NCBI GenBank assembly: GCA_000934665.2 | Contig: KZ538116.1 | Coordinates: forward strand, 1 to 64,000 | Source: Catajapyx aquilonaris | Taxonomy: Eukaryota | Direction of reading: 5' to 3' | Length of the DNA stretch: 64,000 nt | Shown here: positions 3,587 to 64,000 of the stretch, in pieces | Numbering within the stretch: the first letter of the stretch is position 1 | Layout: every line of letters begins with the position of its first letter | Made by a program: the position numbers and the translations under genes | The notes under the pieces: generated by a model | Databases searched by the model: none | Seen by the model: only the letters and a program-made list of their open reading frames with translations | Told to the model about the DNA's origin: nothing

Positions 3587-5741
3587 ATGCGCGATAATTT
3601 ATCGAGTAATGACATGTTGGTAATGAAAAGTGGTGGAAGAGGTATATGTGGTTGAGCTATTCGTGAACTTTCCCAAATCCCAGACCAAAGGCTAGGACCC
3701 CATTGTCAGGATCAGTCTGCGACACGTGTAAAGGGAACTCAAACCACTTCCACTGAATAAAAAGAAGAAGACAACTTGAATCTATTAGCAGGAGTTCCCC
3801 CCCTAACTCCTCTATGGCTTCCGAAGGATCAAAAGTTATCCTGTCTGCCTGCTGTCTTGGTGAGAAACGACATTTCAAGGGCTGACAGTCGACACCATCT
3901 GAATCTATTGAGGGGGCGACGGTAGAGCATAAGCCCTCACTGAATACCAACTGAAACTCAGGGGGGAAAGTGCGCCATTTCGAGCTATAAAAAAATGCCT
4001 GTCAAATGCAACAAGTTTGGTTCAATTAGTATATACTCACGCACTTTTGTCCCAATTTCAGATGCAGTGAAATGCGAGAAGCCGTACGAAATCTGCGAGG
4101 GCTGCGGACAGAAGATACACGACCGGTACCTGATGCGAGTGGCAGATACCAGTTGGCATGAAGAATGTCTCACCTGCTGCGTCTGTCGGGTGCAACTCAC
4201 GCACTCTTGTTACTGCAGAAACAGCAAGCTCTACTGCAAGCTAGACTATGACAGGTAAAGACGAGTTGGAAGTGTGGTAGCTGCTGTATCCTGCTCCTCT
4301 GATGACACTTTTCGTTCTTTGCGACAGGATTTTCGGAGCCAAGTGCTCGAGGTGTGGTGAGAGGCTCCTTCCTCACGAGCTGGTCATGAGGGCACAGAGC
4401 CTGATATTTCACCTGCAGTGCTTCGTGTGTGTGGTTTGCTGCCACCAGCTGCAGAAAGGCGACCAGTTCGTTCTCAGGGGTACGCAGCTTTTCTGCAGGG
4501 CGGACTATGAGAAGGAAGTCTACATGCTGCAGCAGGCCAGTCCAAGAAGTAAGTCTTTTGCCTCTCTCAAAATATTCTTGGAGAAAAACCCTGTCCACAC
4601 TCCCAAATACCCAGTCCATCATCCTGATCTCTGGTAATATACAATCTGCTGCGATCCAGGTGAAGATGGTCATTTGCATTGCCCCCACGTTTTGGACCCT
4701 TTCCCAGCGGACGAGTTGATACCGGACGAGAACAGCAGGCCCAGGGACGGACGGAGGGGTCCAAAGAGGCCCAGGACCATCCTCACCTCGGCCCAGAGGC
4801 GACAGTTCAAAGCTTCCTTCGAGATCAGCCCCAAGCCATGCCGGAAGGTCAGTTATTCACACTGCATCATGCTGTAATACAAGAGTCCAATGCATTCATT
4901 CTGGTATGATGTAACCCAAAAACCCACACAGTTGATTCCGATTTATTCTTACCATATACTAACAGACGCCTCTATTTTTTCCTTGCAGGTGCGGGAGGCA
5001 CTAGCGAAGGAGACTGGATTGAGCGTACGGGTGGTCCAGGTGTGGTTTCAGAACCAGCGTGCCAAGATGAAGAAGCTTCAGAGGAAGGCCAAGCAGGAAG
5101 CAGAGCAGCAGAAGGGTGGCAGTGGGGTGAGTGGTAGCGGAGGTGCTGGTGGGGCAGGGAGCGGAGGAGGCGGAGGAGGAACCAGCGGAGAGGACTCCAA
5201 GGAAGCCAAGGAAGACACCAAGCCAAAGACGGAGCCTCCAGATGGGGAGCAGAGTGAGTCCTGCTCCATCGCAGCAATGATGCGACAAAGCCAACATTTC
5301 CACTCATACGCATTGTCGACCATTGCAGATCACTACCTAGGGATGGGCCAGCTGGTAGGGGATCAGTCGGACGCTCCGTTCACTCCTTCAGGCAGCCAGC
5401 CTCTCAATCCCAACATGCCCTACTCCCCAGATGGTAATGTATCTAAAACATAAGATTTTACACAATGTAGGGCTGGTTGCGTGCAAACATTTTAATTATT
5501 GTTTTAATCAGGTGATGCCTATCCAGCCCATTCCGGTGAGAGCTTCTGCAGCTCCGAATTGTCGCTGGACGGAAGCACCAACTTTGAGCAGCTAGAAGAC
5601 GGAGCCTCAGAGACAATGTCACTGCACAACCTGGACCAGGGGAGTCAACCAGCCGACCTTATACCTGGCGCATTCAGTCAAGTCAACCCCATCGATAAGC
5701 TCTACTTGATGCAGAACTCCTACTTCAACACTGAGCAGTGA
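3587..5741 (+). CDS. Lmx1: LIM-homeobox transcription factor, Lmx1 family (7 exons)
   Basis: Two LIM domains ([37 protein letters not shown]), homeodomain [45 protein letters not shown] and C-terminal [14 protein letters not shown]. Phase-compatible GT-AG exons 4062-4254, 4328-4548, 4708-4847, 4989-5253, 5329-5433, 5512-5741. Exon 1 (3587-3641, [18 protein letters not shown]) is tentative but phase-compatible. Confidence 0.93.
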
Positions 5742-7488
5742 ACCAGTGCAGTGTCTATTTATTTTCCCATTAAAAACTGATTGTTACTTTTCCTCTACAC
5801 TCTTCTGGTTCGAATGCGTCCAATACTGTTGTCCATTTGCTTCAGCCATGTTGATAAGGGACTGTTAATGCCTGTAATATACCACATCATCCTCCCAAAC
5901 GTAAGTTGACAAAACTCATACAACAAGAATGAACTCCTGAACAAGTTTCTTTGATATAAATTACAAGACAAAATTATTACAAACATGCCCATTCCTTTCA
6001 GTCGAATACACTTTCTTGTAATTGTACAGTATAACCGCCTCCAAAATAACATAAAAGTTTATAAATGTAATATCACTACAGACTGAGTTCACTTGCTATC
6101 GCGCACTAGGTGGCAAAATTGTTGATAGGAACACATTGCATGAATTCCACTCACAGATGATTGCCCTTCATCAACATGGATCAAGTGAATGTTGGCAGAC
6201 TGTATTTTGGTGTAAACTAGGAAGGCGATTTCAAAGGGGAGGAAAAAAAGCAGCATTTCTGTTACGACTAGTCAACTCCGGCTCCTATTGAGTCTCTCCT
6301 AGTTTTCTACCATTTAAAAACATGAAAAGTGTTACAGTGTCGTGAAATATGGTGTGTCTAGTTTTAAAAACTCTTAGCTTAAAAGAGTCTTTTTAGCTCA
6401 TCGTAGCCAACGGAGAGCACAAAAACTATCTTACATGAACTTGGCAACAGTGTGGTGTGTGACCCCCGAAGGATGCATCTAGTCATGAACTAATGGGCCA
6501 CTCTACTTTGCGTGTGCAGCTTTTGTTGGTTGCTTCTGGTCTCCCAAACACTGTCCACATATTGTACTTACAAGGTATTAGTGATGTGAACATTTCTTTC
6601 CCCCCCATCACCCCGTAAAAAAAAGTAAATATGTCCACAGATCACATCTGCACTCATTCCTGCAAAAACCCAATGACAGAAAGCCCTAGGGATAAAAAAG
6701 ATAAAAATTCTTCCGGACAGAGGTGCAAAAGAATACCTGAACTGTTTCTAGATGTTAGATCATTATTGCACATATGAGGTGTACACAGTGTCCATTGATA
6801 ACTGATACCAGGACAATTCTACCACAAAAACTGTCACTTGGGTAGCACAATTTTTTGAAGATAAAATAAAAGCATAGAATGAGGCCTCTTATCTGCCCAA
6901 TGTGTAAGGATGTTTTTTTCCTCGCATGCATTGTATTGTACATAACTTTAATTTTCAATCGGCACCTTCAACGAATGAGTTGTACAATACTTACTTCAAC
7001 CGCAGCAAGAACTTCTCTCTTGCTCCTCCTCACAGGTCTCGTACGACAATCATTGGTCATTCTTGCATGCAGAATTCAGCAAGTACATGTACGTGTATGC
7101 AAACATTTTCCTTTCACCCATAATATTCTACATTTAGAGCTTCAATGCTGACTTCCCTTTTGCAGGGGAAAACATTCCATCCAAATAAAATTTTCTCACT
7201 CTTTTGAAGGCGAACCTCCTTAGGTCATTCTCTCTGACCCCACAGGTCATGGTTCCACTCAACCTGCTTATTACAACCTTACCCGAGGTTGCCACGAGGT
7301 CGTTTCCATAACTCGAAGGAGCCCTGGTAGGCCTCATGACGCCCTCCACATCAACTGATAGCAATATGCAGTTAGCAGGGCCCCAAATTTCAAAGACGCA
7401 TTTTACAAAAACGGTTTAATGTCCATATACTTACAAGGATAGAAAATGAAAACAAAAAATGAAAACAAAAGTTCAGGTGATTTTGTGT

Positions 7489-8143
7489 TCACTGCTTGTA
7501 TTGAGCGGCTTCCTTGCGAGCTGCATCCTGAAGGAGCTGGATGTCAACCTCATCTGCCGGGAGCTGAACATAGCGGACAACAGACCCACGGATGAAGCAG
7601 TTCTTCACCGACAGCTGGAAAACAAGTACGTGAATGCCCCACACGCTCTGAACTGGTTTAAAATATGCGCACACTCGCTGTCTACTGAAATGCAGGCACT
7701 CACCATGTGCGGATACTTATCTGGATCCGTCACATTGATGTCAGTCAGCTTAATGTTCAGGTACTGGTCCACCGAGTGAAGGGTTCCGCATATACTGCAA
7801 TGACAAAATGGACATTACCACTTAAGCCTCTTGCTTCCACGAAGCTTATTCAGATGGTTAGTACAATACCTGAGATCATTCTTGAGCTCCACGACCACGT
7901 CCTTCCCAACCAGGGACTTGAAGAAGGAGTAGAACAGCTGGAAACACACAAGAGAATTAGGAAACAACTCAATTATTGGTGGGACAAACTGATGGGCCGG
8001 GTTCGGTTCCAGGTGCAGATATATCGTGGGCCGGGTTCGGTTCCAGGTCCAGATATATCGTGGGCCGGGTTCGGTTCCAGGTCCAGCGTCCCCCTGTGCT
8101 GAGTTATCCAGCGTGCAACTTGTGCGACCCTGCAACGTACCAT
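7489..8143 (-). CDS. LSM2: U6 snRNA-associated Sm-like protein LSm2 (4 exons)
   Basis: Spliced product M|LFYSFFKSLVGKDVVVELKNDL|SICGTLHSVDQYLNIKLTDINVTDPDKYPHM|LSVKNCFIRGSVVRYVQLPADEVDIQLLQDAARKEA. Exons 8143-8141 (ATG only), 7937-7870, 7794-7704, 7614-7489. Confidence 0.96.
7993..8086. repeat. Minisatellite, about 34-bp unit x about 2.7, in LSm2 intron 1
   Basis: Unit tgggccgggttcggttccaggt(g/c)cagatatatcg repeated near-identically. Confidence 0.9.
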
Positions 8144-10299: not shown

Positions 10300-11537
10300 A
10301 TGGTATTCTCAGGATTGACAGACGAGCAGAAAGAAAAGGTAAAGTAACCCTCTTTAATTTTTGAAATTGAGCTATAATCAGTGATTAACACATTTCCAAC
10401 AGTATGACCGAGATGGATACCTGGTGGTTGAAGACTTCTTAAGTGAAGATGACGTGAACGATGTCAGATCTGCCTTCTTCAGATTGGTGGACAAAGACAC
10501 GCGTCACAACAAATGCATCTTTTCCACTGACTCTGTTTCAGCGCAGGTATAGGTATAATTATGGCTGAAATATTCATATCCACAGTTTAGAAGGATTCAA
10601 AATCCAAGGTTCGAGATGTGGAGTGATAGCCTCGAAATGCGGGTATATACATAGGCCTACAGAGGTGCTTTTCTTACTTTCAGCATCGGGACAAGTACTA
10701 TGGCGACAGTTCGGATCAGATACATTACTTTTATGAACCGGGAGCATTTGACTCTAATGGACAACTGTTAGTCCCGAAGGATGTGTCCATAAACAGACTG
10801 GCTCATGGCCTGCACGTCCACGACCCGGTGTTCAAAAAGTATGCCTTCAACGATCGGGTCAAGTCGTGCGTCAGAGACCTCGGAATGGTCAAACCAGTGG
10901 TCACTCAAAGCATGTATATCTGCAAGAACGCGGGAGTCGGAGGAGCAGGTATGTATGCAAAAGTTGTCCTGATGTGTACAGGGTGGTGCAATGAGCGCGT
11001 ATTCCTTACATACAGCCGCTGCACATCAGGACGCGACTTATTTGTACATGGAGCCCTTGAAGCTGGTTGGCATGTGGTACGCCCTGGAGGATGTGACCCT
11101 GGACAACGGCTGCCTCTGGTTCGTACCTGGGTCACACCGTGGTCAGCTGGCCAACAGGTACGTACGGAACCAGGATCCAAACGGTACCCCGGCCTACGTG
11201 TTCAAGAAAGTCAGCGACGTCTGTTACGACGACTCTGACTTCGTGCCTGCCACAGTCAAGAAAGGTGAGGAAAAAAAGGGCCAGTATCAGCAGACATGAC
11301 ACAACCAAGATGAAGCGTCTCATGATGAAGCGCTTCATGTTCCGTCTCATTGCAGGGTCTTGCGTGTTCATACACGGTATGGTGATGCACAAGAGTGACA
11401 AGAACACTTCCAACAAATCCAGACATGCATACACTTTCCATATCATCGACACCGACGGTACACGTTGGGCACATGACAACTGGTTGCAACCAAGTCCTCC
11501 GGACTACCAGTTTCCTTCACTCTACAACAGTGTATAA
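10300..11537 (+). CDS. PHYHD1: PHYHD1-like 2OG/Fe(II) dioxygenase, copy A (5 exons)
   Basis: Exons 10300-10338, 10403-10546, 10684-10948, 11016-11264, 11356-11537. Motifs YDRDGYLVVEDF, HQDATYLY, NGCLWFVPGSH, HGMVMHKS, SRHAYTFH, NWLQP. Confidence 0.9.
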
Positions 11538-12035
11538 CAACAAGCAAAGGAGAGTTAAGGCTACTGGATAATATAAAAGTCGACAAAATTGATCAATTTC
11601 GTTGACTTGAGGCTGCAGCAAAAAAAAGGAGAAGAGATCCGCAAATTGCAATATGACAACGACACTCACAGTAATGCTACGTAATTTGCCTGTTATTGCT
11701 TGGGACTTGAAATAAACTGTGGAAAAATAACACAGAGGCAGTCTACCCATTCCTATCTGTAAAGTTGTCTCATAAGATTCAGTCAGACTTATAGGGTGAA
11801 CAACAGGGTGTAACAGAAAATTACTTTATGTCGAGGTGTCATTGAATCGCAAATTGGAAAAAGGGGATAAGTCACAGTAATGAACCAAACTTTTCAGGAC
11901 GCACGAAAAACTAATAAGTTACATAGAGTAAAGCTTATATAATATTGATATTGACATTTTCATAGGCTGCAATCAATGTGGAACGTGCAGAAAGTTGTTG
12001 CTGCAACTTTTCTTCAAACGTTTGCCAGACACACT

Positions 12036-13202
12036 GTAGCGTCCAAAGTCAAAAGGCAGTATCTGCACTTCTTCGTGTTCCGAGAAAAAGGCACTTGAAG
12101 TTCAACATCATTTTTTTCGCATACAGTAAGAGCTACCAAAATGAAAATAAGATGGCACATGTATGTTTTAGCGCCTAATTCAACGGAAGACATATTTCAA
12201 AGGTGACATAACTCCTTCAGACAATTTTGTAAATACTGCCTTTTGCCAGAGGTACACGTGCACACTATCCAATGTCAGAAGCTGCATGTACTGTACCAAA
12301 TACTGCCTTATGCCACGCTTTGAAGTGGAAGTCTTGAAGAATATCTGTCACAGGGAAGACACTAATATTCCGTCAAAAAACATGCATACAATATTATACA
12401 ACATAGTTACTTAGCATACTTTATTCCTCCGTTTACCCTACAAGACTTATATCCCTGTGCTTTTCAATACATATATTTAATCATGCAGAAAATCACACAA
12501 ATCTCGACTCAAATCATTCTCGGGCATTGCATTCCAGAAATCTCGTCGGTTTTCCGGCATTTTTGAAAGTAGTTTCTGGACCAAGCGCCGCTTCTTCTCT
12601 GGAGGGATTCCTCGAGGGATCGGCCCTTGCTTGCTCTCCCGGGGCAATATGACTTTTGCTGTTTTCTTCACAACCGCTGCTTTTGGCAGAACAATGTAAT
12701 CGTTGTCGAACTCACACTTGTAAGCAAATCCCCCAGAATAACGTGTAAACTTTACAGCACAAACTGTATTCAGCAGTGGCAGACATTCATCGTGTGCCCT
12801 TCGAACGCGATGAATGACATCGTAACTGTAAATGTCTCTCTCAGTCAACAGGACCGGTATAATCCCTTTAGCTGCTTGCTGACAGGCAGTCACAAAATCT
12901 CGAAAGTCATAGACATTCCGCATTTTTCAGACTGACTTCTCGATGCATCCATGTATACCATCGGCTGCCTGAATACCGGACGTTGATTGGCTGCTTGCAT
13001 ATACTGCCCTTTGCCTTGGGGCACGAATGATTTTTCTGCTAATACTGCCTTTTGCCATCTCCAAATTGGCTGAGCGGATCGTCTTACGCCCATGGCAGTA
13101 GGCTTCATATGTGCAGTTTCACAGGCGCATTCAGGTGCGAACAAAAACTAGAATATGATGAAAAATGCAGATACTGCCTTTGGCCTTGGGACGCTACCAC
13201 TC
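12036..13202 (-). mobile_element. Deleted DNA transposon, probably Sola-like
   Basis: About 33-bp inverted repeat (gtagcgtccaaagtcaaaaggcagtatctgca.. / ..tgcagatactgcctttggccttgggacgctac) with internal atactgcctt subrepeats. ORF 12477-12923 (VYDFRDFV..PRGIPPEKKRRLVQKLLSKMPENRRDFW) resembles an invertebrate transposase C-terminus. Superfamily assignment is from memory. Confidence 0.6.
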
Positions 13203-13284
13203 ATTGAGCCATGTGAGCGTTGATTGCATAATAGACAATTAAGTACCCGAAACTGCCCTACATATGTAACGTACATTATTAGAC

Positions 13285-13601
13285 TTTTAGACATTTTCGA
13301 GAGAGAAAAAGTCGTAGAACGGCTCTGTCTGTCTGTCTGTGAACAGGCATCCGACAGACAGACAGAGCCGTGCTAGAAGACCTTTTTTCGATTTTCGGGT
13401 TCCAGGTTCACTCTATCAGCCCCTTACCCCTGCCTGACCCCCCNNNNNNNNNNCCCTGACCTCCCAGTCCCCCCACCACCCCCTCCCACAGATCACCCTT
13501 TCTCACTTCCCTCCTCCTACCCCATGATACCTGATACCTGTCCACAGACGGACAGAGCCGTGCTGTAAGACTTTCCGATGGATGGAAAAAAATGTCTAAA
13601 A
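13285..13601. mobile_element. Non-autonomous Helentron/DINE-1-like element or MITE (contains an assembly gap)
   Basis: 13-bp inverted ends ttttagacatttt / aaaatgtctaaaa, a (CTGT)n microsatellite near one end folding into a hairpin at 13311-13381, and an N-run at 13444-13453. Confidence 0.55.
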
Positions 13602-13996
13602 CTACTAGGATCGATTTTTAAAGGGGAAAGGGGCGGTCAGATCAGTGTCTTTGACACCATTTAATATATTGGTCAGTTCCCTGGCGAATATCATAATTTG
13701 GTTAATGAAAAGAAGCATGACAGTATCAGAAAATGTCAGTGCCCGAGAGATTGTAAAAGCACTTATCGATGTATTCATTGAGTATTATATCATTTAGGTG
13801 AATATATTCAGAAGCATTCCAAAAGTGGAAGGACACCACATATAATATTTTGATGTAATGACTAGTCGATTGTCCGCATACAAACGTCAAGTGCAGTTCT
13901 AATCTGTAGGCTACATCTAGATACCCAATCTTGTCAGTGTGGAATTATTCTTAAAAAAGAAACAAGCAATTAGAGTTGTTCAGATAGAGAAGGACA

Positions 13997-15532: not shown

Positions 15533-16006
15533 AAAGTGCTCCCAAACAGAAGCCAATAAAAGCATTACATAACATGCAGTTTTTGATTAGTTAATCAGGC
15601 AGCTGTATCCTGCGAGTCAGACGACCCTTTTCTCTGGGGTGAAAGAAGGGTTGCCTATCATGCAGGCTAAATCATATTCTAGACAGCAGCAACAGATGTC
15701 TCTTGGAATCTACCAATCAGGCGACAGAGAGATAATAAGTGGCCTTGACTAATGAAGCAATGGACACTTCTAGGCCTTCAAGTGTTTGTAGGCTGACTGG
15801 TCACCTGGTTGAGGACACTGCACCAAAAGTCATGTCATAGCCTTTATTATCTGTGACCATGTAAGATAAGAAAAGCTGTCACTCTTGTACTGTAAGCAGG
15901 TGTAAGTGCTAATTAATCACAGGTCTGCATACACTTTCATGATGCACAAATGAAAACTACAGCAACTATTGTACAATTTTTAGACAGAATTTTGGTAATC
16001 AACAAG

Positions 16007-17263
<1,257 letters not shown>

Positions 17264-51692: not shown

Positions 51693-51727
<35 letters not shown>

Positions 51728-52373: not shown

Positions 52374-54992
52374 ATGTCTGACGCGGACTGGAACACCGTC
52401 ACCGTGCTGAGGAAGAAGCCTCCGAAGCCATCGGCCATGAAGACTGAGCAGGTTCTGGTTTTTTTTCCCCGCACAACTCGCCATTTTTGTAGCCCCATCC
52501 CGTTGTTTACATGGGAAGGAGGAATTTCAGAGGTTTGATTGTGGCCTTTATTGCAGGCTGTCAACGCTGCCAGGCGACAGGGAGTGGCTGTGGATACCCA
52601 ACAGAAATGTAAGTTGGATCAGCTGATTAGTGGCCATACTGCAAGCGAATTCCAACAAGCTGAATGTGGCAGCGGAAACTACTCAGAAAAAGCTAGACCA
52701 GTTCCGTTGTGCAGAATAATATATTATTGTGCAACTGTGGAGGTCACATGGGTCACACTTAACCCAGTATTGCAACTGATGATGCAAGAGTTGCATGATA
52801 CAAGCCTAGTTGAATGTTATGATAAGCAGATACAGTTGAATCTGGATGTAGCAGACTTCAAGGGACCGCGGGGAAAAAGTCTGTTACAACCGATGTCTGT
52901 TATAGCCAAATATCCACTTTGCAAGGAACACACAAGTTTTCTGCTTTACATGTGCTTATAATGCACACTACTGCATGCTGATTCATGCACCCCCTAAAGA
53001 CCCTGAAGGGTCATCACGGGGAACTAAAAAGAAAAGGGGAAAACTGATTCATGAAACTATCCGCAAAAATGCAAATTAGCTCACCCAGGATTACGCAGGA
53101 CCAAAAGAAATACGTAATTTTCTTCTGCCGCCTCCATGTTGCCAAATATACCAGAAAAAGGATTATTTTGAGTAACTTGGATCAGTGACAGATGCGAAAA
53201 TCACCCCTGCTCCAGTATGCAGTGCTTTCCTCGCGTGGAAAAGGAAGCTGACTAATCAAAAACAGCATATTTTCCTGTCAAGGGGCCAATAAATGGTATG
53301 TTACACATGAGGTGAAGGGAAAATGAGTCTGTTATATCAGGAGTAAGAAGACACAGGGCCTCATGGAAGTTTGCTGGGACCGGCCTTTCAAGTCTGTTAT
53401 AACAAGGCTGTTATATCCGGATTTAACTGTACTATATCGCTCAAAAACATAGACAATTTTGCATTTGATTCAAGTGCAGGCTGCACTTGAGTAAAATGCA
53501 AAATCGTCTATGTTTTTGAGAGATATAGTACATAGTAAGTGTAGAGAGGGTCAATGTTTTGCTAAACAAGTCAGTGAGTGATGTGGGTTGCATCATACCA
53601 GGATGAAACTAATATTCCTCCTTCCTCCATTTTCTGAAAAATAAAGAGGCATTAGTAGAAAAGCACATTTGCAATATTTTCATGTGTGATTCAGGGAAAA
53701 CTGCATTTATATCAATTATATATTTTTAGTGTTGCGTGACATGGTGATAAAGAGAGTTCTGTTTGATTTCTCTGCACAGGGGGAGCGGCCCAGAACAAGC
53801 ACCACCAGACGACCATGAACACTGCACGCCTGGATCAAGAGACGGAGGAGCTTAAGCACCAGCGTGTCACTGTTGACATTGGGAAGGCCATTCAACAGGG
53901 ACGCCAGACCAAAGGATGGACCCAGAAGGAACTTGCAACGGTGAGTTGTTTTCTCTCTCATCAGAGGTTAAATAATTTATGCCACTAATGTTCTTCACAA
54001 AAAATAGAAGTGCTAAGCCTTGGTCGGAAGCATGGCCGCAGGAACATTTAAGGCCCGTTTCCAAAGAAGCTTCAGCTTGAAAAAGTGAGCTATGGAGCTC
54101 ATCCTAGCCGGTGCTTCACAGCTAGCGCCCTCAGACCGGTTTCCAAAGAGGCTTTGGCTTCACAACGGAGCGGAGGAGATTGCTCTTCAGGCTCAAGATC
54201 ACTCTTTGTCTCTCCTCGCTGCCTCCCCCTGCATCGGCAGGGTCCTCTGCCCGAGCAGCTCCTTCCGTGACCTTCGACAGGTCATCTTTTTTTTTCTCCT
54301 CTCTCCTTCCGTGGCCTCCCCACCCTGTGTCATTCCCCCACCCCTAGCCACCTCCCCACCGAGATTGTCCCACATGACCCCAGGAGCCGCGCCGGATTGG
54401 TCAGAAAGACGCTCTAGCTCCAGCTTGAAAATCGCCTCGTGCTCGATGTTCAAAGCAAGCTGAATGGGAGAGCTATAATATCGACCCAGCGCTAGAAACG
54501 CGTTGCAGCTGGAGCTAGAGCCAGAGCGCACTTTTTCAAGCTGAAGCTTCTTTGGAAACGGGCCTTTACGTTTTATGTTTGATTGGTAGAAATAATTGGA
54601 CTTGAAATTAAACCCACACAGTCTGTATGTTACTGTTGCAACTCTCTGTGAAACTCGTGATATGAGCTTATCTCTTAAAAATAATGGCCAAATCTTTTTC
54701 AGTGAAGCAGCTATAAATTGCTTTTCTAATTGTTGACTCATTACCTCCCCTGCAGCGCATCAACGAGAAGCAGCAGGTTGTTACGGACTACGAGGCTGGG
54801 CGTGCCATCCCGAACCAGGTCATTATCGGAAAGATTGAGAGGGCCCTAGGTGAGTAGCAAGAACTAGAAGCGAACAGCATGAGAGGTATTATCACATTAT
54901 AACGCCCCTCTTTGTTTGCAGGTATGAAGTTGCGCGGGAAGGAGAGGGGTGGAACTATACAGGGACAGCCTCCTGGGAAGGGGAAGAAGTAA
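52374..54992 (+). CDS. EDF1: Endothelial differentiation-related factor 1 / MBF1 (5 exons)
   Basis: [15 protein letters not shown]..|[80 protein letters not shown]. Exons 52374-52451, 52557-52608, 53780-53940, 54756-54849, 54922-54992. Confidence 0.96.
52833..53429. mobile_element. Tigger/pogo-like non-autonomous element in EDF1 intron 2
   Basis: Ends ta|cagttgaatctggatgtagcag / ctgttatatccggatttaactg|ta, with subterminal tctgttata repeats. Confidence 0.72.
53432..53528. mobile_element. Short palindromic MITE abutting the previous element
   Basis: Near-perfect hairpin ctatatcgctcaaaaacatagac..gtctatgtttttgagagatatag, TA flanked, related to 23246-23324. Confidence 0.75.
54051..54565. mobile_element. 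Young PIF/Harbinger (Tourist-like) MITE in EDF1 intron 3
   Basis: 37-bp perfect TIR aggcccgtttccaaagaagcttcagcttgaaaaagtg with TTA duplication at 54048-54050 and 54566-54568. Confidence 0.9.
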
Positions 54993-55861
54993 AGTCTCAA
55001 CCCAGGGGGCTGCAGGAGTCAAAAAAAAAATGAGAGGAGCAAGGCATAGACAACACATTTTGTTTTAGGGTTACGTCGTAAGAAAGTTCACTACACATGG
55101 TTACACAGAGAAGAAAAAAGGAAATGACAAAAAAAAAAAATGAAGACAGACTTGTGATGTTGTGATTTCTCAGTCGCCAAGATTTTTGTTTTTGGTTCTT
55201 TTTTTTTTCCTTCTTTCGGCTGTTGGCACTTTGGTGGCATAGATCCTGTCAGGTAGCGTTTCTACTTTTTCTACAGGATGCAATCAGAGTTAGATTATCT
55301 GCTTTTTATGTATGTATGTTGGTTGGTTTAACATTTGTTTCACATCTGCACTGTTGAACATCCCGTTTAACAACACTTTGTTTTGCCATTCAGCTCCGGT
55401 ACCGGGTTTCAGTTTCAGCCATGAGTTATTGGTGCAACTAATGTGCAAATGTACAAATCTAACAAGATTCTCGCCTAAGGGTGACTGTCGCAACGGTTAC
55501 CAAGCAATAAAGACACCCAAGAAATTAGTGAGGAGTCTTTTTCCGTATCCTGTTGCCTTCCAACACTCAGCAGTACTCTCAAACCTACTAGAAGCAATAG
55601 AGTCAATCCTCGTTAGGTATGTGTGTGGTACTACACACGAATTGTGAGGATTGACTCGAGTGCTTCTAGTAATTTTGTGGCTAATTTTATACGATAAGTC
55701 TCCCACATTTTGTTCCCTTTTCATTCAGAAGAAAAATCACACGTGAAAAAGAGTTATTCTTCAGCAGCTTTTATCCTATTTTCCTTGAAAGTCAACAAGC
55801 CGTGAGAAAACATGAGTAATGAAACCACCAGGCACCTTTATTTTCCAAATTTTATGGGGAC

Positions 55862-56654
55862 CTAATCCCGACGTAACATGAACTTCTCCTCCTCGACCCC
55901 TTTTGAGGTGATGATGTTAATCATGATTCCATCACCAGTGTAGATGTCTCGCTCTGCGGCGGATATGAAGACATCCTTCACAATCTGGATGGCCTTCTCC
56001 TTGCTCACTGGCACTGCCTTCACACCTTCCATATTCTTCCCACCAATCTTTAAAAAATTAAATTAATGTAGTGTAGGTTACACTTGCTAAGGGCCGGTTT
56101 CACCGAGCTTGGTATATGATAAAACCAGGTTTCTTTAGGAAAATCCATACAAATAGATAGGGATTTTGAGAAATACCCTGGTTTTATCATATACTGAGCT
56201 CGGTGAAACCGGCCCTAAGACAGCTTCCTGATGGCATATTAGTTTCTAATTAGAAAGCTTGGCACAGAAAGGGAAGTTATAGCAGCTTGAATGTCTTACA
56301 ACAGAATTGGTGGTACCGCAATTTTCATTCTACAAAAAGTATGCCCTACCTGGTTGTCAAGCAGTGGTTGCAGCAGTGCTCCTGAAGATCCACCAGCAGA
56401 GTAGGTGAGCTTCTCAACATGTCCCACTGGGTCGTAGCTGTAAATGCAGCCTTTGCCGTCCTGGTCAAGTCCAGCCAACACATTGGACACGTAGTAAGGG
56501 AAGAACCGCTTGTAATACAGCATCGTGGAGAGCATCTGTGCGACCGCAGGTGTCGTCATCAGTTTGTGGTGCTCGTGGAGATACATCTGCATAGGAACGA
56601 AGATATGCGATATTTTCATAACAGTACAATATCCCCAAAGGTCATGCACTACCC

Positions 56655-56710
<56 letters not shown>

Positions 56711-57091
56711 GCCTGAATGCAGTACCTTCATGCGGGCATCAAGGAACTTTGTGAGTGTGAGTATATCACACCAGCACCCGGAGCACCCAAGCACAGTGTT
56801 TGGTGCCAGCTTGTACAGCTTCGGCTGCTCCCTGGTGTAGATGGAGAAACCAGCACTCAAGCGGGTGTCCGACGCAATGACAGCAAAGTCTTCCCCGGCC
56901 ACAGCCACAATACTCCTGCAAAATAAGATGTCGTACATGTGCATTACAAGCAGGAATAATGCCACGTCCGACAAAATAACAGTCATGCAAGTGCATTTTT
57001 ACCCTCCGTTGTCAGAATAGGGGCTGAAGTACGCCTGTTTAGGTCCTCGCAGGCCGTAGCCGGGATCCATCTGGCCTTCCAGGTTCATCAT
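55862..57091 (-). CDS. PSMB1: Proteasome subunit beta type-1 (non-catalytic; 4 exons)
   Basis: [29 protein letters not shown]..|[54 protein letters not shown]. Exons 57091-57003, 56915-56726, 56586-56350, 56047-55862. Confidence 0.96.
56091..56215. mobile_element. PIF/Harbinger MITE in PSMB1 intron 3
   Basis: About 39-bp TIR gggccggtttcaccgagct..ataaaaccagg with TAA duplication on both sides. Confidence 0.88.
56657..56710. repeat. (TAT)n microsatellite in PSMB1 intron 2
   Basis: About 18 uninterrupted TAT units. Confidence 0.95.
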
Positions 57092-57793
57092 TATTCGTCC
57101 GTGCGATGAAGCGAGTACGAAGAGGGCAGACAGGGAGGTTCTTTTTTTTCACCGGAACTGGCGGAACAGAAAAAGTCAATCGAACAAGTGAAAATTACTC
57201 AGCTAAACACCGCAATGGCCGCCGTTCATCCGCCTCAGAGACACCTACTGGGAGATCCAGAATAATGAAGAGCGTCATGGCTTCATAATAAATTAATATT
57301 AAAATGTTGCTACGGGGTATTAAAATTTTAACATTGTGGTGTACAATATTTGTAGCGTTATTTCCATAAAATGCGAATAGTGGAATTGCGATGAGGTCAC
57401 GCTTGTCCAATATGGCGTCGCACTGATGACAACAAACCTGTTCGATTCTGGTAATTATATTTTATTGCCGGCTTCCACTGTGCCGGGTTGTCAACTAAAG
57501 GGTGGAAAATTAACGGGGACAGTTCCATCTGCCTGGCTGTCATTTTTTCAAAAACTTGTCGCCTTTACTGACATCCTTAAAAAATTAAATTAAGGTACAG
57601 ATTCAGCTCCAAATGCAGTGTTGCTTAGCAAGTTTTCGTCATGGTTTATTGGATTTTGTGACAAGTACACAGACTGCAGATAAAATTTCAGAAGAAGGTT
57701 GACATTTTAAAAAATATTTAAAAATGTATTCTCGCTTCAATTCTAGTGTGCTGATTCTTGTCTCCAAACTCAACTTATTTTTCGTCCTGGGGG

Positions 57794-60025
57794 ATGAATC
57801 TCACCCCGGATGATGGTGTCCCTGACAGTGGAGAAAAGAGCGCTGATGCTAGTCATAATGGGGCCAGAGCCAGGTTGGACCCAGCGAAAAATAGGGAGGA
57901 ACCAGAAGGTCAAGACTGTACCGCATGCGATGAGGGGAGCTGGAAAGTGTCACTTGGGAGCTGTGACGTGACCGGAGATGCCCTGGACAGCATTGTCATT
58001 CCTAGTTTACAAGACAGCATTGCCATTCCGAGCTTTCATGATTCCCCTTCGTCGTCACAGACTGATTTCAGTGAACCGCCGAGCCTCCCAAAACCGAACC
58101 TGGACATGACACCAACGCCATCATCCTCTAGGTCGCTGACTCCTACCCCTGTCTATAAGGCTGTGAGCACTTCTGCAATAACTGTTACTTCCTTGCCTGT
58201 TTCCAACCCAGATCTGCCTCGTAGCGTCAGCTGCTTCAACTTGGGAAACAGATTTGTGCATGTTGAGAGTCGGGTCAAACGTTATATTCGTGACATGAAG
58301 CAGCGGCAGGCAGAACATCGGGCAAGGTCACCTGGTCGCTCAGGTGATCTCTCTTCAGACTGGAGTCATCAACCAGAGGTCACCAGGCGTCACCATGCCC
58401 CATGGTTCTTTCCATATGAAAGCTCAGAAGAGGATTCAACTGTTGAGAAGGATTCAGAGGCACTTAAATGTGAGATAAAAAATGAAAAAAGGTTAAACCG
58501 GCAGAAAGATCAAGTTTTGTCTGAACTTGAAAAAAGTCACCAAGAATTACTTCTAAAGTATGCAGCAGCAGAAAATACCATTGATAAGCTCCGGTTACTG
58601 ACAATGTTTCCAGCTTCAAAGCCTGTGTCTGAGAGTAGATCCGAGAGTACAAAGTCCCCTGCAAAAGAAAGCAGCACAAGTGATACACTGACAGATTCAG
58701 AACGTGAAAGTGACAGTAGTGCCCAACACCCAGCTGTGCCAGTCAAGAGCAAAAGTACCCGGGCCATGTCACAAACTTGTGAAAATAGTGACACCCCAAC
58801 AAAATCAGAGTCCAAAAGCGACAGCAGCAGGCGAAGACGCAGTCAAGCAAGAAGCATAGATGGCCAAACAATGTTACAAAGCAGTGTGGGTCTCACTTGC
58901 AATATTGATAGGGATGGAGCCATTGATGTCCTCAAGGAGTTTGAAAGTAGGCCGAACCCAACTCTGGAGAAATCACGGAGAAGCACAAGTGCTCAAACAA
59001 GTTTCCAAAGAAATAGTGTGGGTGTCGCATGTGACACACTGGATTTGAAACCTAATCAGGTCAGTAGTGCGGGTGTTCAAACTGGCTTTCAGAGTAATGA
59101 ACCAGGTGATTACAGCGCACAGTCTTTGAATGCCATGACGCATCCAGTCACAGAGCTTACCACCAACCAGGCAATGAAAGTTGTGGAAGAAAACCTTGCA
59201 AGATCCCTTCACAAATGGCAGGAGGAAGTGGAGACTCGGCTGAAGAAAGTTATTAGCAGATCAAGGCGCAGGAAAGATTCACCCAGCCCGTCACATGTCA
59301 CTATCTCATATAGTGATGATACACCATGCAACAGTACAAGCTCATCAACTTGGAGCAAGTCACAACCAGGCAAAATTCATAATCCGTCCAAAACTAGTAA
59401 CGAGCCAATTTACCCAGGCATATCTAGCAGTAGTACAAGTAAACATCACTGTGCCAAAGACTGTTGCTCCAGACATTCATCGCAACATGATGACCTGAAT
59501 CCAAAGAGTGCTTCTTCATCCGTGCAGACAACAAACGATGCCGAGGGAAAATCTAACCCAGAACCAGTGAGTATTATCATACAGTGGTGTCATTTCCCAA
59601 ACTTCTATCAATAACAACTTCTCTCGTTGACAAAGAGGTGCAAGGATGTCCCTTTCATATCCGAAATTATTTGCACTTTTGTAGATGTTGATACCTAAAT
59701 TTTTAAAAATACATTGGATGACCCTTTCATTCAAGGGGGAATTTCAAAATTGTGCAGAGCAGCTACAAAACATTTTGGTATATTTCCTATAATGCTTGGA
59801 GTGGCAAAAATTAATTGGTTGAGGAAGTTATCTTAATACACTGCACTAATTCTTTGGCTGAAAGTCACTTGATTTCCAACTGCTTGGAATGCCTTATTGA
59901 CAAACAATCTTTTTCAGGACTTGGACAGACTAATTGCCTCGATGCAACTGGCCGAGAGTGTTGCTGCAGCCATGAAGTCCCGCTCAGAGACCATGCTACA
60001 CCAACTGCGGCGCATGACTCAGTGA
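57794..60025 (+). CDS. AKNA: AKNA-domain protein (AKNA/AKNAD1 family; 2 coding exons)
   Basis: Large Ser-rich exon 57794-59566 contains ELLLKYAAAENTIDKLRL, matching the AKNA coiled-coil motif as recalled. In-frame last exon 59918-60025 (DLDRLIASMQLAESVAAAMKSRSETMLHQL) resembles the AKNA C-terminal helix. Start codon tentative. Confidence 0.72.
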
Positions 60026-60123: not shown

Positions 60124-63100
60124 CTATGTTGCTGACGCTAGATGATCTATCCTGCAGTTTGGTTGCTGACAGAATGGACATAGACCTTCAGGAGTGAAGA
60201 GAGTTTTGTAGGAGCTTCTCAAGTAGTTGATGTACGTCTGGAGGTTCTGGTTGCTGGACCGCACCTGCTCTAAGCTGGTTGACATGTCAGCTATCCTTCC
60301 TTGAAGCTTCTGCTCCATCTGAAGGCAAGGGAAGACGTAATGTTTTTTTTTTTTTAATCCTCCCTGTTGTAAAAGTTAAATTGAAATGAAAAGGCCTCAG
60401 GTTATTGTGAAGCATCCATCAAAGTATTGCGTGTGAGGCCTTGTGGACAGTTGTGACAGAGATCGTGGCCTTGCCTTGTGCAATGTTTCCATTAACCCTC
60501 ACTAACTGTTAACTCTGGCAAGTGACTAGGAACAACTTTTAACCAGAGCAAACAAGGGTCCATGGAAATATAGCACTAGACATTGTAGGAAAAGGTAATT
60601 CACATCATGCAAGGTTAGGTTTGTGCTGATTTTGTGACTTGCACTTGGTTAAAATATTTCATTGTTTTACTTGGGAGTATTTCCTTGCATTTAGCACAAA
60701 ACCGGGAGCCGTTCAAGGAGGGCATCTCCACATTCTAACCCCTTGTATTCACAAAATTTCATTTATGGATTTAGGACTGAAATTGGACTATCCGGAATGG
60801 CATCAAGGCTAAAAATATGAAGAAATCTGAACTCAAATTCATAAGCACTATTTTCCACCACAGTAATTCCGTCCACATCTACACAGTATTACGCTGGTTG
60901 TGACCCAGGTTGCCCGATGATACAAAAAGTATAGCTTTTTTTCTCAAAACTTACGTAAAGCTGACAGTTTTTGTTTGTGTTGACCCATTGAGAATAATCA
61001 AGGCAAGGATAGGTATTCACGTACTTCATCTTTGGCACTTGCTATTCTTGAAGTCTCAATGTTTGCCTGCTGTATCCTGTCCTCTAGGGATCGAATGCGG
61101 GCTTGCAGATTCTTCCCCTGGGCCTCGTACCTCTCCCTGATCCTCTCCAGCTCCACCCTTCCAGACTCTGCCACAGACTCCAGCTTATGTGACAGGGAGG
61201 CATTCTCCCTTATTTTGTCTTCAACACGGCGTGTCAGCTGCTGGACCAGCTGGCTTTTATTGAGCACCTCATCCCTGGGTTAAACATTTAAAGGAAGGTT
61301 GTCAGCAGGAAGGAACGTAAAAATTGTGCCAAACAAATATCACAAGTCCTAGTTGCAAGGGTGGCAACAGTGATCTTTTTGTATTAGAAGGACTGTAACT
61401 GTTTGTGAGAGAAGTAGTATAGACCTAGCAAAAGAAACAGTCACAATAATGGTAACAATGATGATGTCGATGATGAGTAAAAATACTAATAACAATAGTC
61501 TTAAGAGTAATAATACAGTTAAACCTGGATGCAGGGACAAGTTGTCCTGCATGGAACTTTTGTTTGGCCCCAGCAAAGCATATTCACTATATCTCTGTTA
61601 ATATCATTGGCATACAAGTGAGGCCCCCCATGTCCAAAAAAAACAAAAAACATTTCAAGATTGACAAGGCAAAGATATGACCTTGCACTTGTTGACGTGC
61701 TAATGAAGACAGAAAATCCTGGCTTTCTGGCTCATTGCACATCTTTCGGATGAAAGGAATTCACCAGATGATAGTGCAGAAAAATTCTACTTGCAAGTTA
61801 GTGGTATAATTAACTCAAAACCACCAAAATTGGAATTAGTGTGTTTCACTTGTGTGCCAACTACATAACTGTGGGTAATTTTGTGCAAAATGTGATGACT
61901 CCACTGTAAACAGGTTTCACTGAAAATGAAGTAGATTAGTTTACTTAGAGCATAGAATGTGTATAATATTCTTGAAATATATTGTAACTGTGTGTATTCT
62001 GGAAAGTATGAAAGTACAGTAGTCATATCTAGTCGTGACAATAATTCTATGGTCTTATGTACCCTACATTTACAAGGAGATATTCCTTGGAGATATTCAT
62101 TCCATTAATTTGTGACATGAGCTGTAGTGTGTCACTACATATTTTTGTTGGTACTTGCAGATATTACTGTAGATATAATTTGAGTGCCAATGACTGTTGG
62201 AACTAATACAAGTTCAATTTGAGAACTTCAGTTTTAAAAGCATTGAACATGCATTTGATCACTACCAGTCAGCTTGCTATGAGTTCTAATTGTATCACAT
62301 GTTCAAGCAACAGTTCGATGTTGTTCCTAAAATATAACTTAAGTCAGTGAAGGATGGTGCTTCCTTCAATAACTCTTAGTTTTAGGCATTTTTGGTTCAT
62401 GTCTGAGGAGCAGCTTAAGTTCTTCATTTTCGGAAGGATAAAACATTTCCTACAGCTTTATTCACACGGTTCTAGTCAATGTATACAGGGTCCTAAACCA
62501 TGGAATTATTCCAAGTCAACAAATTTTCGAACAATATTTTTTACTCCTGTGCAGGTCCATGTTGGACTACGTTAATCACTTTTGTATATGAGTGTAATAC
62601 CATGTTGCAAAGGAAAAGTATTAAATGGACAATCAACTTTCACTATTCAAAGACTATACCAAGAACGTTTTTCTGAGGCTGCAACATGCAAGTACAAGTG
62701 AGGTGTCGGCGGCAAAAACCCTATTAGTCACATCGAGGTAGTTTTGAGAAAAACACGAAAAACTTCTTGGATACATAAGGGGTTTTTATGGAAACTCTCT
62801 ATTTTCAGCATTTATCTCGAGGCGTTGTATGGGGTTTTTCCGGTTGACAATCGTATGTTCCTGTAGCTAGATGGCTGCAATGTCCAGCTGTTATGTTATC
62901 CCGAAAATGAATAATTTGGACATATGGGGTTTTTGACACCGACGCCTCATTAGTAATATTATGTAAGTAATATCATGGAACCAAAGATGGCAATAAAAGG
63001 TATATAATCCTGACCTAAGCGTCTTGTTCATTAATTCCAACTCTTCGCACCGGGTCTTGTATGCCCCAAGTTTGCTGTCCGCGTTCAGCTTGGCATCCTC

Positions 63101-64000
63101 TGCGCTCCTGGTGCTTACCTGCTGCCTGTCCAGTTGTTGCAGCAGCTGCTCCACCTTTTCTCGGGGAGGGAGAAATAATCATTCCAGTTTCACTACCTAT
63201 AATGGACCCAGGCAAAATAATATTGTGTCGCCCTTAGGTTGGGCGCAACCTAGGCATACCTTCCTGGTGAGCACTGCCACATTCTGCTGCATCTGGTCTC
63301 GATGCCTCTCCAGCGCCACCCTGTCTATGAGGACCTCCTGAAGCCTTGACTCGCTGGCCTGGAGCATCTCTGGGAGGGGCTCAAGCTCCCTCATCCGCTC
63401 TTGCAGCTGCTGCTTGAACAGCTCCACTTCCGTCCCCACCTGGCTCTGCGCCCTCACAAACTCCGCCTGAAGGTCCTCCACGGTGTGGGTCTTCTCCTCC
63501 AGCTGGCGAAGCGAGTTGTGGTAGTGCTGCTCCAGCTCTTCCGTGTGGAGCTTTGTGTTCTGCAACTCCCCCTGGAGGCCCTCCGAAGAGCGGAGGGCGG
63601 TCTGGAGGCCCTTTTTTTTAACCCCCCACATCTACAATTAATTCATCAGTAACATGCATGGCAAACACAAGTTTCTTCAGTGTCTTCATGATTCTACTGA
63701 ATAATGCAATGATAGAAGTGCATATGTACAGTGAATCTGACCGGACTGACCTGGTTTTCAACTCTGAGGCGTTCCAGCTGTTCCTGTGCTTCGTCGAGCC
63801 TTGTTTGTAGAGCGGCCACCTCCTTCTCCTTTTCCGAGTTGTTCGTCACCTCTTGGGTGTCCAGCTTGTCCTGAAGTGTCTTGGTCCTCACCTCTGCATT
63901 TTCCACCTTGGTTTCCAAGTTGCTGACATGTGCCTGGAGGAGCTGCCTGGAGCGCTGGAGGTCCTGCACCTCCCGTTCCCTGCACTGGAGCTCGTGGGCT
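60124..64000 (-). CDS. ODF2: ODF2/cenexin (ODF2/ODF2L)-like coiled-coil protein, 3' part (runs off the window)
   Basis: Coiled-coil exons >64000-63751, 63631-63260, 63154-63015, 61274-61025, 60318-60124. Motifs LQERMRELEPLPEMLQASESRLQE and MEQKLQGRIADMSTSLEQVRSSNQNLQTYINYLRSSYKTLF match the cenexin C-terminus as recalled. Confidence 0.78.
62700..62948. mobile_element. Small GAG..CTC-ended non-autonomous DNA element (Sola-like?)
   Basis: Imperfect inverted ends gaggtgtcggcggcaaaaaccc / gggtttttgacaccgacgcctc. No clear target-site duplication. Confidence 0.5.

What the first reader, a model, noticed from the sequence alone, without database searches (positions are those of the whole stretch)
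3587..64000. Compact proto-MHC-like linkage block in an invertebrate
Seen: Lmx1, LSm2, PHYHD1, EDEM3, DDAH, GORAB, BAG6, EDF1, AKNA and ODF2 lie within about 60 kb. Established (human map positions from memory): BAG6, LSM2 and DDAH2 are in MHC class III (6p21.3); LMX1A, GORAB and EDEM3 are on 1q23-25; DDAH1, ODF2L and AKNAD1 are on 1p; LMX1B, AKNA, ODF2, PHYHD1 and EDF1 are on 9q32-34. These are MHC paralogon regions. Ten of the 12 named families fit, while PSMB1 (6q27) and CCNB1IP1 (14q11) do not. Inference: the window preserves a dense piece of the ancestral pre-duplication MHC linkage group, including three class III genes.
Basis: partly seen in the sequence, partly recalled or inferred. 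Interest (0 to 1): 0.8.

Follow-up and report, generated by a model that had tools for sequence, protein, structure and literature searches.

The report
Ancient MHC-linked chromosome piece in arthropod
A gene-dense stretch of an arthropod genome carries mostly housekeeping genes from the old animal chromosome that later gave rise to our MHC region; this is a known chromosome-wide inheritance rather than a preserved immune block, although a few gene pairs are still neighbours as they are in amphioxus.

Summary
The genes are real: 10 of the 12 named families were confirmed with tools; the AKNA and ODF2 calls remain unverified leads. The organism is a pancrustacean arthropod. The linkage is far beyond chance: of 20 families on the 122-kb contig, 12 are in a published amphioxus table and 10 of these fall in the gene-number range of the amphioxus 'proto-MHC' chromosome (5% of rows). 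But they spread over nearly that whole chromosome in unrelated order, MHC-locus genes are not enriched (3 of 12, P 0.13), no antigen-processing or anchor gene was seen, and other contigs carry further genes of the same group. So this is ordinary macrosynteny in a slowly rearranged genome, not a compact proto-MHC. One modest addition: three adjacent pairs (GORAB-CCNB1IP1, EDF1-PSMB1, SURF1-PFDN6) are also near neighbours in amphioxus; GORAB-CCNB1IP1 was not found in print but is absent from 8 of 8 informative loci of other animals. The scan reached the same verdict earlier on another contig of this genome (e1-7500028).

The parts
3587..5741 (+). Lmx1 LIM-homeodomain gene
   Evidence: LIM, LIM, homeodomain; PDB LMX1A best hit; not in the amphioxus table
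7489..8143 (-). LSm2 (human MHC class III, recalled); start codon placed by eye
   Evidence: Pfam LSM; PDB LSm2; amphioxus Alu_016336, next to PSMB1
10385..17263 (+). Three tandem PHYHD1 paralogues (about 10385-11537, 14464-15532, 16013-17263)
   Evidence: Pfam PhyH; PDB PHYHD1; 58-67% identical; not in the amphioxus table
18523..26569 (-). EDEM3-type mannosidase, head-to-head with DDAH (804 bases between start codons)
   Evidence: GH47 and PA domains; sequence; amphioxus Alu_029478, outside the proto-MHC range
27374..29550 (+). DDAH (human DDAH2 in class III, DDAH1 on 1p; recalled)
   Evidence: Pfam; one genome match; amphioxus rows Alu_012048 and 023276, both outside the range
35234..36675 (-). 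GORAB, head-to-head with CCNB1IP1 (308 bases between start codons)
   Evidence: amphioxus Alu_015040
36984..38800 (+). CCNB1IP1 / HEI10 meiotic RING ligase (3' end approximate)
   Evidence: PDB 9ges; amphioxus Alu_015039, adjacent to GORAB
39088..40231 (+).
   Evidence: no Pfam match
40220..49344 (-). BAG6 (human class III, recalled); first coding exon not fixed, lies further right
   Evidence: BAG6 and ubiquitin domains; spliced contig; not in the amphioxus table
52374..54993 (+). EDF1 / MBF1, tail-to-tail with PSMB1 (about 870 bases between stops)
   Evidence: Pfam MBF1; sequence; amphioxus Alu_016332
55862..57093 (-). PSMB1 proteasome subunit, head-to-head with the AKNA-like gene (700 bases)
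   Evidence: PDB; amphioxus Alu_016337
57794..59614 (+). AKNA-like gene (name unverified): 606-codon Ser-rich frame with two short motifs shared with unnamed invertebrate proteins
   Evidence: 25 weak hits, best E 5e-7; motifs; Atlas lead 0.77; negative
60124..64000 (-). ODF2-like coiled-coil gene (name unverified), continues past the window
   Evidence: generic coiled-coil matches only; no homologue found; amphioxus ODF2 is Alu_015502

Best explanation
The window is a gene-dense, mostly housekeeping island on an arthropod chromosome that descends from the bilaterian linkage group whose vertebrate descendants are the MHC and its paralogons on human 1, 6p21, 9q and 19p (amphioxus A. lucayanum chromosome 7; the label 'ALG/CLG M' is recalled). 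How it works: genes rarely leave a chromosome but inversions reshuffle them within it, so any small piece of such a chromosome samples genes from all four human paralogons, with about one in nine from the MHC itself (shown for amphioxus in the cited paper; shown here by the table look-ups). On top of this, a few short-range neighbourhoods have escaped reshuffling since the protostome-deuterostome split (GORAB-CCNB1IP1, EDF1-PSMB1 with LSM2 nearby, SURF1-PFDN6; adjacency shown, common descent inferred), most likely because short intergenic spacers and shared divergent promoters leave little room for a harmless breakpoint (inferred; no promoter test). There is no immune function and no single ancestral block.
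For: 10 of 12 tabulated contig families in a range with 5% of rows, P 5.5e-12; 6 of 8 after merging the pairs, P 4e-7; 5 of 7 without ODF2, P 6e-6. The range holds RXR, PBX, DAB2IP and SLC44A2 rows, the last three named as anchors in the paper. Span 1,421 of at least 1,627 numbers, rho 0.19. MHC share not raised: 3 of 12 P 0.13, 4 of 20 P 0.16. The rest of the contig continues the pattern: hamartin, laminin gamma, CRYZ-type, TPR-GoLoco, TPX2, glutamine synthetase, SURF1, PFDN6. Amphioxus block-mates lie on other contigs: COQ4 on C5237 beside RPAP2, an ABHD16-like and a WDR47-like gene (the last two names by eye); MED22-RPL7A with an ankyrin-SET gene on C253; PBX pieces on C45, C3744, C7449. 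In other animals GORAB can sit beside other genes of the group (NTMT1-type in L120). Control contig C222 holds LIS1, METTL16, CLUH and an INPP5 (all human 17p13.3, recalled), so purity is not MHC-specific. Literature: MHC-related genes scattered along the whole amphioxus chromosome (PMC13012124 section 14); scaffold-level macrosynteny in a centipede (PMC4244043 passages); order scrambled within linkage groups (PMC8809688 passages).
Against: 8 of 20 families are absent from the amphioxus table, so only 12 were tested; DDAH and EDEM3 (2 of 12) are tabulated outside the range. The table has no chromosome or strand column: the chromosome was inferred from gene-number ranges. Only one outgroup lineage was available. 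The control is thin: of four contigs picked by number, two showed one gene in 100 kb, and only 2 of 7 control names were in the table (both in one range). Counting GPSM3 gives 5 of 20 MHC-locus genes, P 0.054. DNLZ, an amphioxus block-mate of EDF1, sits beside menin, which amphioxus has on another chromosome, so the group is not unmixed in this genome. The promoter mechanism is untested and EDF1-PSMB1 is tail-to-tail, not divergent.
Confidence: 0.8

Rival explanations
1. The contig is a specially preserved, compact proto-MHC block (class III core BAG6-DDAH-LSM2 with paralogon genes) held together by selection since the bilaterian ancestor.
For: Three class III genes within 42 kb, in the same order as recalled for human (LSM2, DDAH2, BAG6); PFDN6 and a GPSM gene follow on the same contig; EDF1-LSM2-PSMB1 meets the three-gene, ten-intervening-genes definition of a microsyntenic block (9 genes intervene here, 6 consecutive rows in amphioxus; PMC4085046 passage).
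Against: Amphioxus orthologues span almost the whole chromosome; MHC share at background; a rough simulation gives three of 12 families within 11 ancient human genes in 28% of draws (16-47% for widths 8-15, parameters assumed); DDAH tabulated off the chromosome, BAG6 not tabulated; strands of the trio differ from the recalled human ones; no RXR, Notch, BET, C3, TAP or PSMB7-type gene among the 94 frames scanned on this contig (frames picked by eye); PMC13012124 section 14 finds no class I-III-II local linkage in five amphioxus genomes.
Confidence: 0.07
2. The contig is an unusually slow-rearranging relic that keeps more of the local ancestral gene order than amphioxus does, so that several further neighbours (DDAH, EDEM3, AKNA-like, ODF2-like, TSC1, LAMC) are ancestral neighbours too and amphioxus is the derived one.
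For: 3 of 5 adjacent pairs with both members tabulated, and 3 of 3 with both on the chromosome, lie within 5 gene numbers in amphioxus (upper-bound P 1.6e-5; permutation among the ten genes P 0.001; the cut-off of 5 was chosen after seeing the data). DDAH and EDEM3 agree with recalled human positions although amphioxus rows lie elsewhere. MED22-RPL7A and LIS1-METTL16-CLUH are kept on other contigs.
Against: The three pairs lie about 840 and 450 numbers apart in amphioxus; intervening amphioxus genes (COQ4, DNLZ) are on other contigs here; none of 40 exon queries from the contig found a second gene in any of 71 GORAB loci from other animals at E 1e-4, though most loci are short; CCNB1IP1 is missing upstream of GORAB in 8 of 8 loci with 3 kb or more.
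Confidence: 0.1
3. Chance plus loose definitions: the paralogon regions cover so much of the human genome that any 12 genes would fit, or the gene names are wrong.
For: Two of the ten 'fitting' names are unverified; human 1p is outside the four blocks named in PMC13012124; human positions are from memory.
Against: The independent amphioxus test gives P between 6e-6 and 5e-12 depending on how genes are counted; 10 of 12 names were confirmed by tools.
Confidence: 0.03

Closest known systems
Amphioxus 'proto-MHC' chromosome (A. lucayanum chromosome 7 and Branchiostoma counterparts; PMC13012124)
   Same: Same gene pool: 10 of 12 tabulated contig families fall in its gene-number range; MHC-related genes are a minority mixed with paralogon genes; no MHC class I/II.
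   Different: Here a protostome; only 122 kb of a fragmented assembly; order reshuffled except for three pairs; DDAH and EDEM3 are present here but tabulated elsewhere in amphioxus.
Scaffold-level macrosynteny of the centipede Strigamia with amphioxus linkage groups (PMC4244043)
   Same: Arthropod scaffolds each enriched for one chordate linkage group (37 of 62 scaffolds in that paper).
   Different: That paper found the signal weaker in the pancrustaceans it examined; this genome is pancrustacean by its GORAB hits and shows a strong signal on this contig.
Ancient bilaterian microsynteny (PMC4085046, 469 blocks; Irimia et al. 2012 gene pairs, PMC3514665, only title seen)
   Same: Pairs or triples of unrelated housekeeping genes that stay neighbours in a protostome and a deuterostome, often divergently transcribed.
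   Different: Whether these particular pairs are in those catalogues could not be checked (supplements not readable or not searched); GORAB with CCNB1IP1/HEI10 was not found together in any paper text searched.
Human MHC class III region and surfeit cluster (positions recalled)
   Same: LSM2, DDAH, BAG6 families, and SURF1; MED22-RPL7A kept divergent on another contig.
   Different: No complement, TNF, HSP70, RXR, Notch, PBX or BET gene seen on the contig; SURF1 is separated from MED22-RPL7A.

Membership tests
Ancestral linkage group of the MHC paralogons (macrosynteny) | Orthologues co-locate on one chromosome of an unduplicated outgroup more often than chance | tested here: met
   10 of 12 tabulated families in a 5% range, P 5.5e-12; chromosome inferred from gene numbers
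Ancestral linkage group of the MHC paralogons (macrosynteny) | Orthology of each gene | tested here: inconclusive
   10 of 12 window families supported by best hits or diagnostic domains; AKNA and ODF2 unverified; no reciprocal hits or trees
Ancestral linkage group of the MHC paralogons (macrosynteny) | Same linkage in a second, independent outgroup (mollusc, echinoderm, cnidarian) | not testable with these tools
   No chromosome-scale animal genomes held; the supplement of PMC8302630 was cut before its gene tables
Compact proto-MHC block | Orthologues confined to a short interval in the outgroup | tested here: not met
   Span 1,421 of at least 1,627 gene numbers; rho 0.19
Compact proto-MHC block | Enrichment of MHC-locus genes above the chromosome background | tested here: not met
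   3 of 12 (P 0.13) and 4 of 20 (P 0.16) against 47 of 432; 5 of 20 with GPSM3, P 0.054; which genes are MHC-locus genes is recalled
Compact proto-MHC block | Anchor genes RXR, PBX, Notch, BRD2/3/4, C3, PSMB7-type in the block | tested here: not met
   None among 94 frames of the contig scanned; PBX domain on three other contigs; RXR, Notch, BET and C3 were not searched genome-wide; chromosome-level linkage of those contigs unknown
Ancient bilaterian microsynteny | Unrelated genes are close neighbours in a protostome and a deuterostome | tested here: met
   GORAB-CCNB1IP1 (numbers differ by 1 or 2 in all five species), SURF1-PFDN6 (one gene between), EDF1-PSMB1 (four between, LSM2 among them)
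Ancient bilaterian microsynteny | Kept across many lineages | tested here: not met
   For GORAB-CCNB1IP1: absent in 8 of 8 loci with at least 3 kb upstream of the GORAB start, about five independent lineages; the other two pairs were not tested
Ancient bilaterian microsynteny | Same relative orientation, and shared promoter or co-expression | not testable with these tools
   The amphioxus table gives no strand; no raw RNA reads listed

The most novel reading that the evidence does not exclude
This pancrustacean keeps pieces of bilaterian-ancestral local gene order on the MHC-related chromosome at a rate well above what is usual between phyla, including an apparently undescribed head-to-head pair of the golgin GORAB and the meiotic crossover ligase HEI10 on a 308-base shared promoter, plus genes (DDAH, EDEM3) that amphioxus has moved away; if the two unverified names hold, it also places two subdistal-appendage centriole genes, AKNA and ODF2, tail-to-tail. 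The genome would then be a better protostome reference than those in use for rebuilding gene order around the future MHC.
Probability: 0.2. Interest if true: 0.6.

Novelty: new member of a known kind. Interest (0 to 1): 0.3.

Why it matters
As a proto-MHC block it matters little: the pattern is what any piece of this well-known linkage group looks like, and it backs the recent view that the MHC became compact only in vertebrates. The useful residue is small but concrete. It shows that PSMB1 and CCNB1IP1 belong to the MHC-related linkage group despite their human positions, it offers three testable old gene pairs, and it marks this arthropod genome as a slowly rearranged protostome outgroup worth scaffolding.

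Tried and rejected
AKNA: Pfam scans, genome family search, homologue search and PDB gave nothing; the genome family search also missed the verified GORAB, so its blank says little. ODF2: no homologue. The Atlas did not take the window's own sequence, so two homologues stood in. Gene-to-linkage-group tables: the supplement of PMC8302630 is cut before the gene lists; PMC3514665 has no readable supplement; the two readable supplements of PMC13508932 hold none of six gene names; the SI appendix and two datasets of PMC13012124 were too large to read and may list chromosome and strand. Literature searches for the pairs: no paper with both CCNB1IP1 and GORAB among 13 listed, none with HEI10 and GORAB, none with SURF1 and PFDN6 among 10 listed, none with PSMB1, TBP, conserved synteny and MHC; the library lacks most subscription papers. 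A PSMB1-TBP link as in human (recalled) was considered: TBP is on another amphioxus chromosome and was not seen on the contig. Sequencing runs: no RNA holder listed; run X1 gave spliced contigs for BAG6 only as far as shown. Control contigs C221 and C224 were too gene-poor to inform. RPAP2, ABHD16, WDR47, PAFAH1B1, CLUH, INPP5K, TEAD1 and CSRP are not in the amphioxus table. The CLG label was looked for in PMC7269912 and not found in its text. No structure or complex prediction was run: it would not bear on gene order.
Full report
Setting. The window is bases 1-64,000 of contig C223 (121,938 bases) in a 285.6-Mb assembly of 20,583 contigs. The closest relatives of its GORAB exon are from orthopteran insects and decapod crustaceans at 78-86% identity, and a control contig carries single-exon ligand-gated channel genes of the ionotropic-receptor look, so the animal is a pancrustacean arthropod; I did not place it further.

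The observation. Fifteen gene models lie in the window. Ten of the 12 named families were confirmed: Lmx1, LSm2, PHYHD1 in three tandem copies, EDEM3-type GH47 with PA domain, DDAH, GORAB, CCNB1IP1, BAG6, EDF1 and PSMB1. These are best-hit or domain calls from single exons, not trees. The AKNA call rests on two short motifs shared with unnamed invertebrate proteins (25 hits, best E 5e-7; one of the ten looked up is an unrelated plant record; motifs) and on one Atlas search with a homologue that ranked AKNA clusters first and third at lead-level scores; a second homologue did not repeat this and Pfam AKNA does not match. The ODF2 call found no support beyond my recall of its C-terminus. One further gene without a family lies at 39088-40231.

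The rest of the contig. Bases 64,001-121,938 hold the 5' part of the ODF2-like gene, hamartin (TSC1), laminin gamma, a CRYZ-type reductase (best PDB hit 1yb5; that this is human CRYZ is recalled), a TPR-GoLoco gene (GPSM1/2 type), TPX2, a glutamine synthetase, SURF1 and the first two exons of PFDN6 (the PFDN6 exons match consecutive residues 1-21 and 22-45 at weak E-values). The remaining PFDN6 exons are at the end of contig C2605, whose end overlaps that of C223 and which carries two more glutamine synthetases. By recall, all of these but TPX2 have human copies on 1, 6p21 or 9q34.

An independent test. Human positions are from memory, so I used Dataset S2 of PMC13012124 (7,972 orthologous groups in microsynteny blocks shared by five amphioxus species; rows seen through searches). 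The table has no chromosome column. Rows from about Alu_014964 to 016591 form one run in all five species and contain RXR, PBX, DAB2IP and SLC44A2, the last three named in the paper as anchors of the MHC-homologous blocks matched by chromosome 7; they make up about 396 of 7,972 rows. I looked up all 20 families of the contig: 8 are absent (Lmx1, PHYHD1, BAG6, AKNA, TSC1, CRYZ, TPX2, GLUL), 2 lie outside the run (DDAH, EDEM3) and 10 inside (CCNB1IP1 015039, GORAB 015040, LAMC 015404, ODF2 015502, SURF1 015876, PFDN6 015878, EDF1 016332, LSM2 016336, PSMB1 016337, GPSM 016460). For the window alone it is 6 of 8. The binomial chance is 5.5e-12 for 10 of 12, 4e-7 with the close pairs merged, 6e-6 without ODF2. 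A link of human 14 with the chromosome-9 paralogue is also argued in PMC10751288 (passages).

It is chromosome-wide, not a block. The ten genes span 1,421 of at least 1,627 gene numbers and their order does not follow the contig (rho 0.19, P 0.6). The paper reports 47 human MHC-locus genes among 432 orthologues on that chromosome, scattered end to end, with no class I-III-II local linkage (section 14 read whole). Against that share, 3 of 12 (P 0.13) and 4 of 20 (P 0.16) are ordinary; counting GPSM3 gives 5 of 20, P 0.054. LSM2, DDAH and BAG6 stand in the recalled human order, but a rough simulation finds three of 12 families that close in 16-47% of draws, their strands differ from the recalled human ones, DDAH is tabulated elsewhere and BAG6 not at all. 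No RXR, PBX, Notch, BET, complement or transporter gene appeared among the 94 frames of the contig scanned (frames chosen by eye); PBX pieces are on three other contigs. Other contigs look just as 'proto-MHC': C5237 has RPAP2, an ABHD16-like hydrolase, COQ4 and a WDR47-like gene (two names by eye), and C253 has MED22 divergent from RPL7A followed by an ankyrin-SET gene of the EHMT type. An earlier agent reached the same reading on another piece of this genome (e1-7500028; an unchecked note, not support). Against purity: DNLZ sits beside menin, which amphioxus has on another chromosome.

Controls. Four contigs picked by number (C221, C222, C224, C225; 100 kb each, C222 120 kb) were read with a codon model. 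C221 and C224 showed one gene each; C225 about seven; C222 about ten, among them LIS1, METTL16, CLUH and an INPP5-type phosphatase, all recalled at human 17p13.3. Only 2 of 7 control names were in the amphioxus table, both in one range. So retention of old linkage is not peculiar to MHC-related genes, but this control is thin, and the window is denser than all four. Comparable scaffold-level macrosynteny is published for a centipede (PMC4244043, passages), and order within linkage groups is described as largely scrambled between phyla (PMC8809688, passages).

What is left over. Five adjacent pairs on the contig have both members in the table. Two involve the off-range genes (EDEM3-DDAH, DDAH-GORAB) and are not conserved. 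The other three are all close in amphioxus: CCNB1IP1-GORAB are consecutive rows of block 640; SURF1 and PFDN6 have TMEM183A between them; EDF1 and PSMB1 have COQ4, DNLZ, one unnamed gene and LSM2 between them, and LSM2 lies nine genes from EDF1 here. An upper bound on chance is 1.6e-5, a permutation among the ten genes gives 0.001; the cut-off of five numbers was set after seeing the rows. GORAB and CCNB1IP1 are head-to-head with 308 bases between start codons, SURF1 and PFDN6 are divergent within 800 bases, EDF1 and PSMB1 are tail-to-tail. EDEM3-DDAH (804 bases) and PSMB1-AKNA-like (700 bases) are divergent too, so the island is rich in short shared spacers. The amphioxus run MED22-RPL7A-SURF1-TMEM183A-PFDN6 survives here as two separate pairs. 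No paper text held both GORAB and CCNB1IP1 or HEI10, but pair catalogues in supplements could not be read.

How general is the GORAB pair? A scan of metagenome contigs gave 71 GORAB loci. None of 40 exon queries from the contig found a second gene in them at E 1e-4, but most are short. In the 8 loci with 3 kb or more upstream of the GORAB start (about five independent lineages; two starts placed by weak hits) CCNB1IP1 is absent. Their neighbours include an NTMT1-type gene, which is in the amphioxus run, a tyrosine kinase and a ribosomal protein read by eye as DDR and RPL35, and unrelated genes (a CLC channel, an H1-domain protein, an exonuclease). The pair is therefore old but loosely held.

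Mechanism. Shown: shared chromosome of origin, scattered order, background share of MHC genes, three adjacencies shared with amphioxus. Inferred: slow loss of genes from the chromosome with reshuffling by inversions, and survival of tight pairs because breakpoints in short spacers or shared promoters are costly. Not shown: any immune role, co-regulation, or orientation in amphioxus.

Verdict. A real but ordinary piece of a known ancestral linkage group, with a small new detail. Novelty: new member of a known kind. Interest 0.3. Other papers seen only as passages: PMC8302630, PMC4085046, PMC13508932, bioRxiv 10.64898/2026.08.17.745143 (AKNA at subdistal appendages).

Noticed in passing
window 10385-17263 (+): Three tandem PHYHD1 paralogues, 58-67% identical, all keeping the HxD motif in the exon compared; a 10-base N gap lies between copies 1 and 2.
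   Followed up: partly
window 39088-40231 (+): Small two-part gene with a signal-peptide-like start, Thr-rich tracts and Cys residues, no Pfam match, ending against the BAG6 3' end; looks like a lineage-specific secreted protein.
   Followed up: partly
window 57794-64000: AKNA-like and ODF2-like genes are tail-to-tail; both vertebrate proteins act at subdistal appendages (AKNA; ODF2: recalled). Neither name is verified.
   Followed up: partly
L006:3134-4565 (-) and L048/L049 (contig C2605): Three glutamine synthetase genes flank SURF1-PFDN6; the C223 copy is only 52% identical to the two others (83% to each other) and has T-Q-K where they have E-Q-E, a motif recalled as metal-binding, so it may be a diverged or inactive enzyme.
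   Followed up: partly
L006 end and L049/L050: PFDN6 is split over contigs C223 and C2605, whose ends overlap; the two can probably be joined.
   Followed up: yes
L015:7100-9210, L016:5948-9831, L132 (contig C222): LIS1 divergent from METTL16, followed by CLUH, with an INPP5-type gene nearby: recalled as neighbours at human 17p13.3.
   Followed up: partly
L130:159-5728, L131 (contig C253): MED22 divergent from RPL7A (surfeit pair), followed by an ankyrin-SET gene of the EHMT/G9a type.
   Followed up: partly
L052, L053 (contig C5237): RPAP2, ABHD16-like, COQ4 and WDR47-like genes within 14 kb; the ABHD16-like gene and COQ4 are divergent.
   Followed up: partly
L054:8872-9267, L055:16-4619 (contig C2767): DNLZ divergent from menin, joining genes of two amphioxus chromosomes; one amphioxus DDAH row and TBP lie in the same range as menin, which could hint at an old fusion or translocation.
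   Followed up: partly
window 8876-9310 and 12480-12926: Transposon-like remnants between genes: a weak DDE endonuclease match (E 9e-4) and an unmatched 149-codon frame.
   Followed up: no
window 7990-8090: Short tandem repeat of about 36 bases in the first intron of LSm2.
   Followed up: no
L037:5685-7559 and L038:9-1847 (contig C225): Two near-identical single-exon ligand-gated channel genes in tandem, a recent duplication.
   Followed up: no
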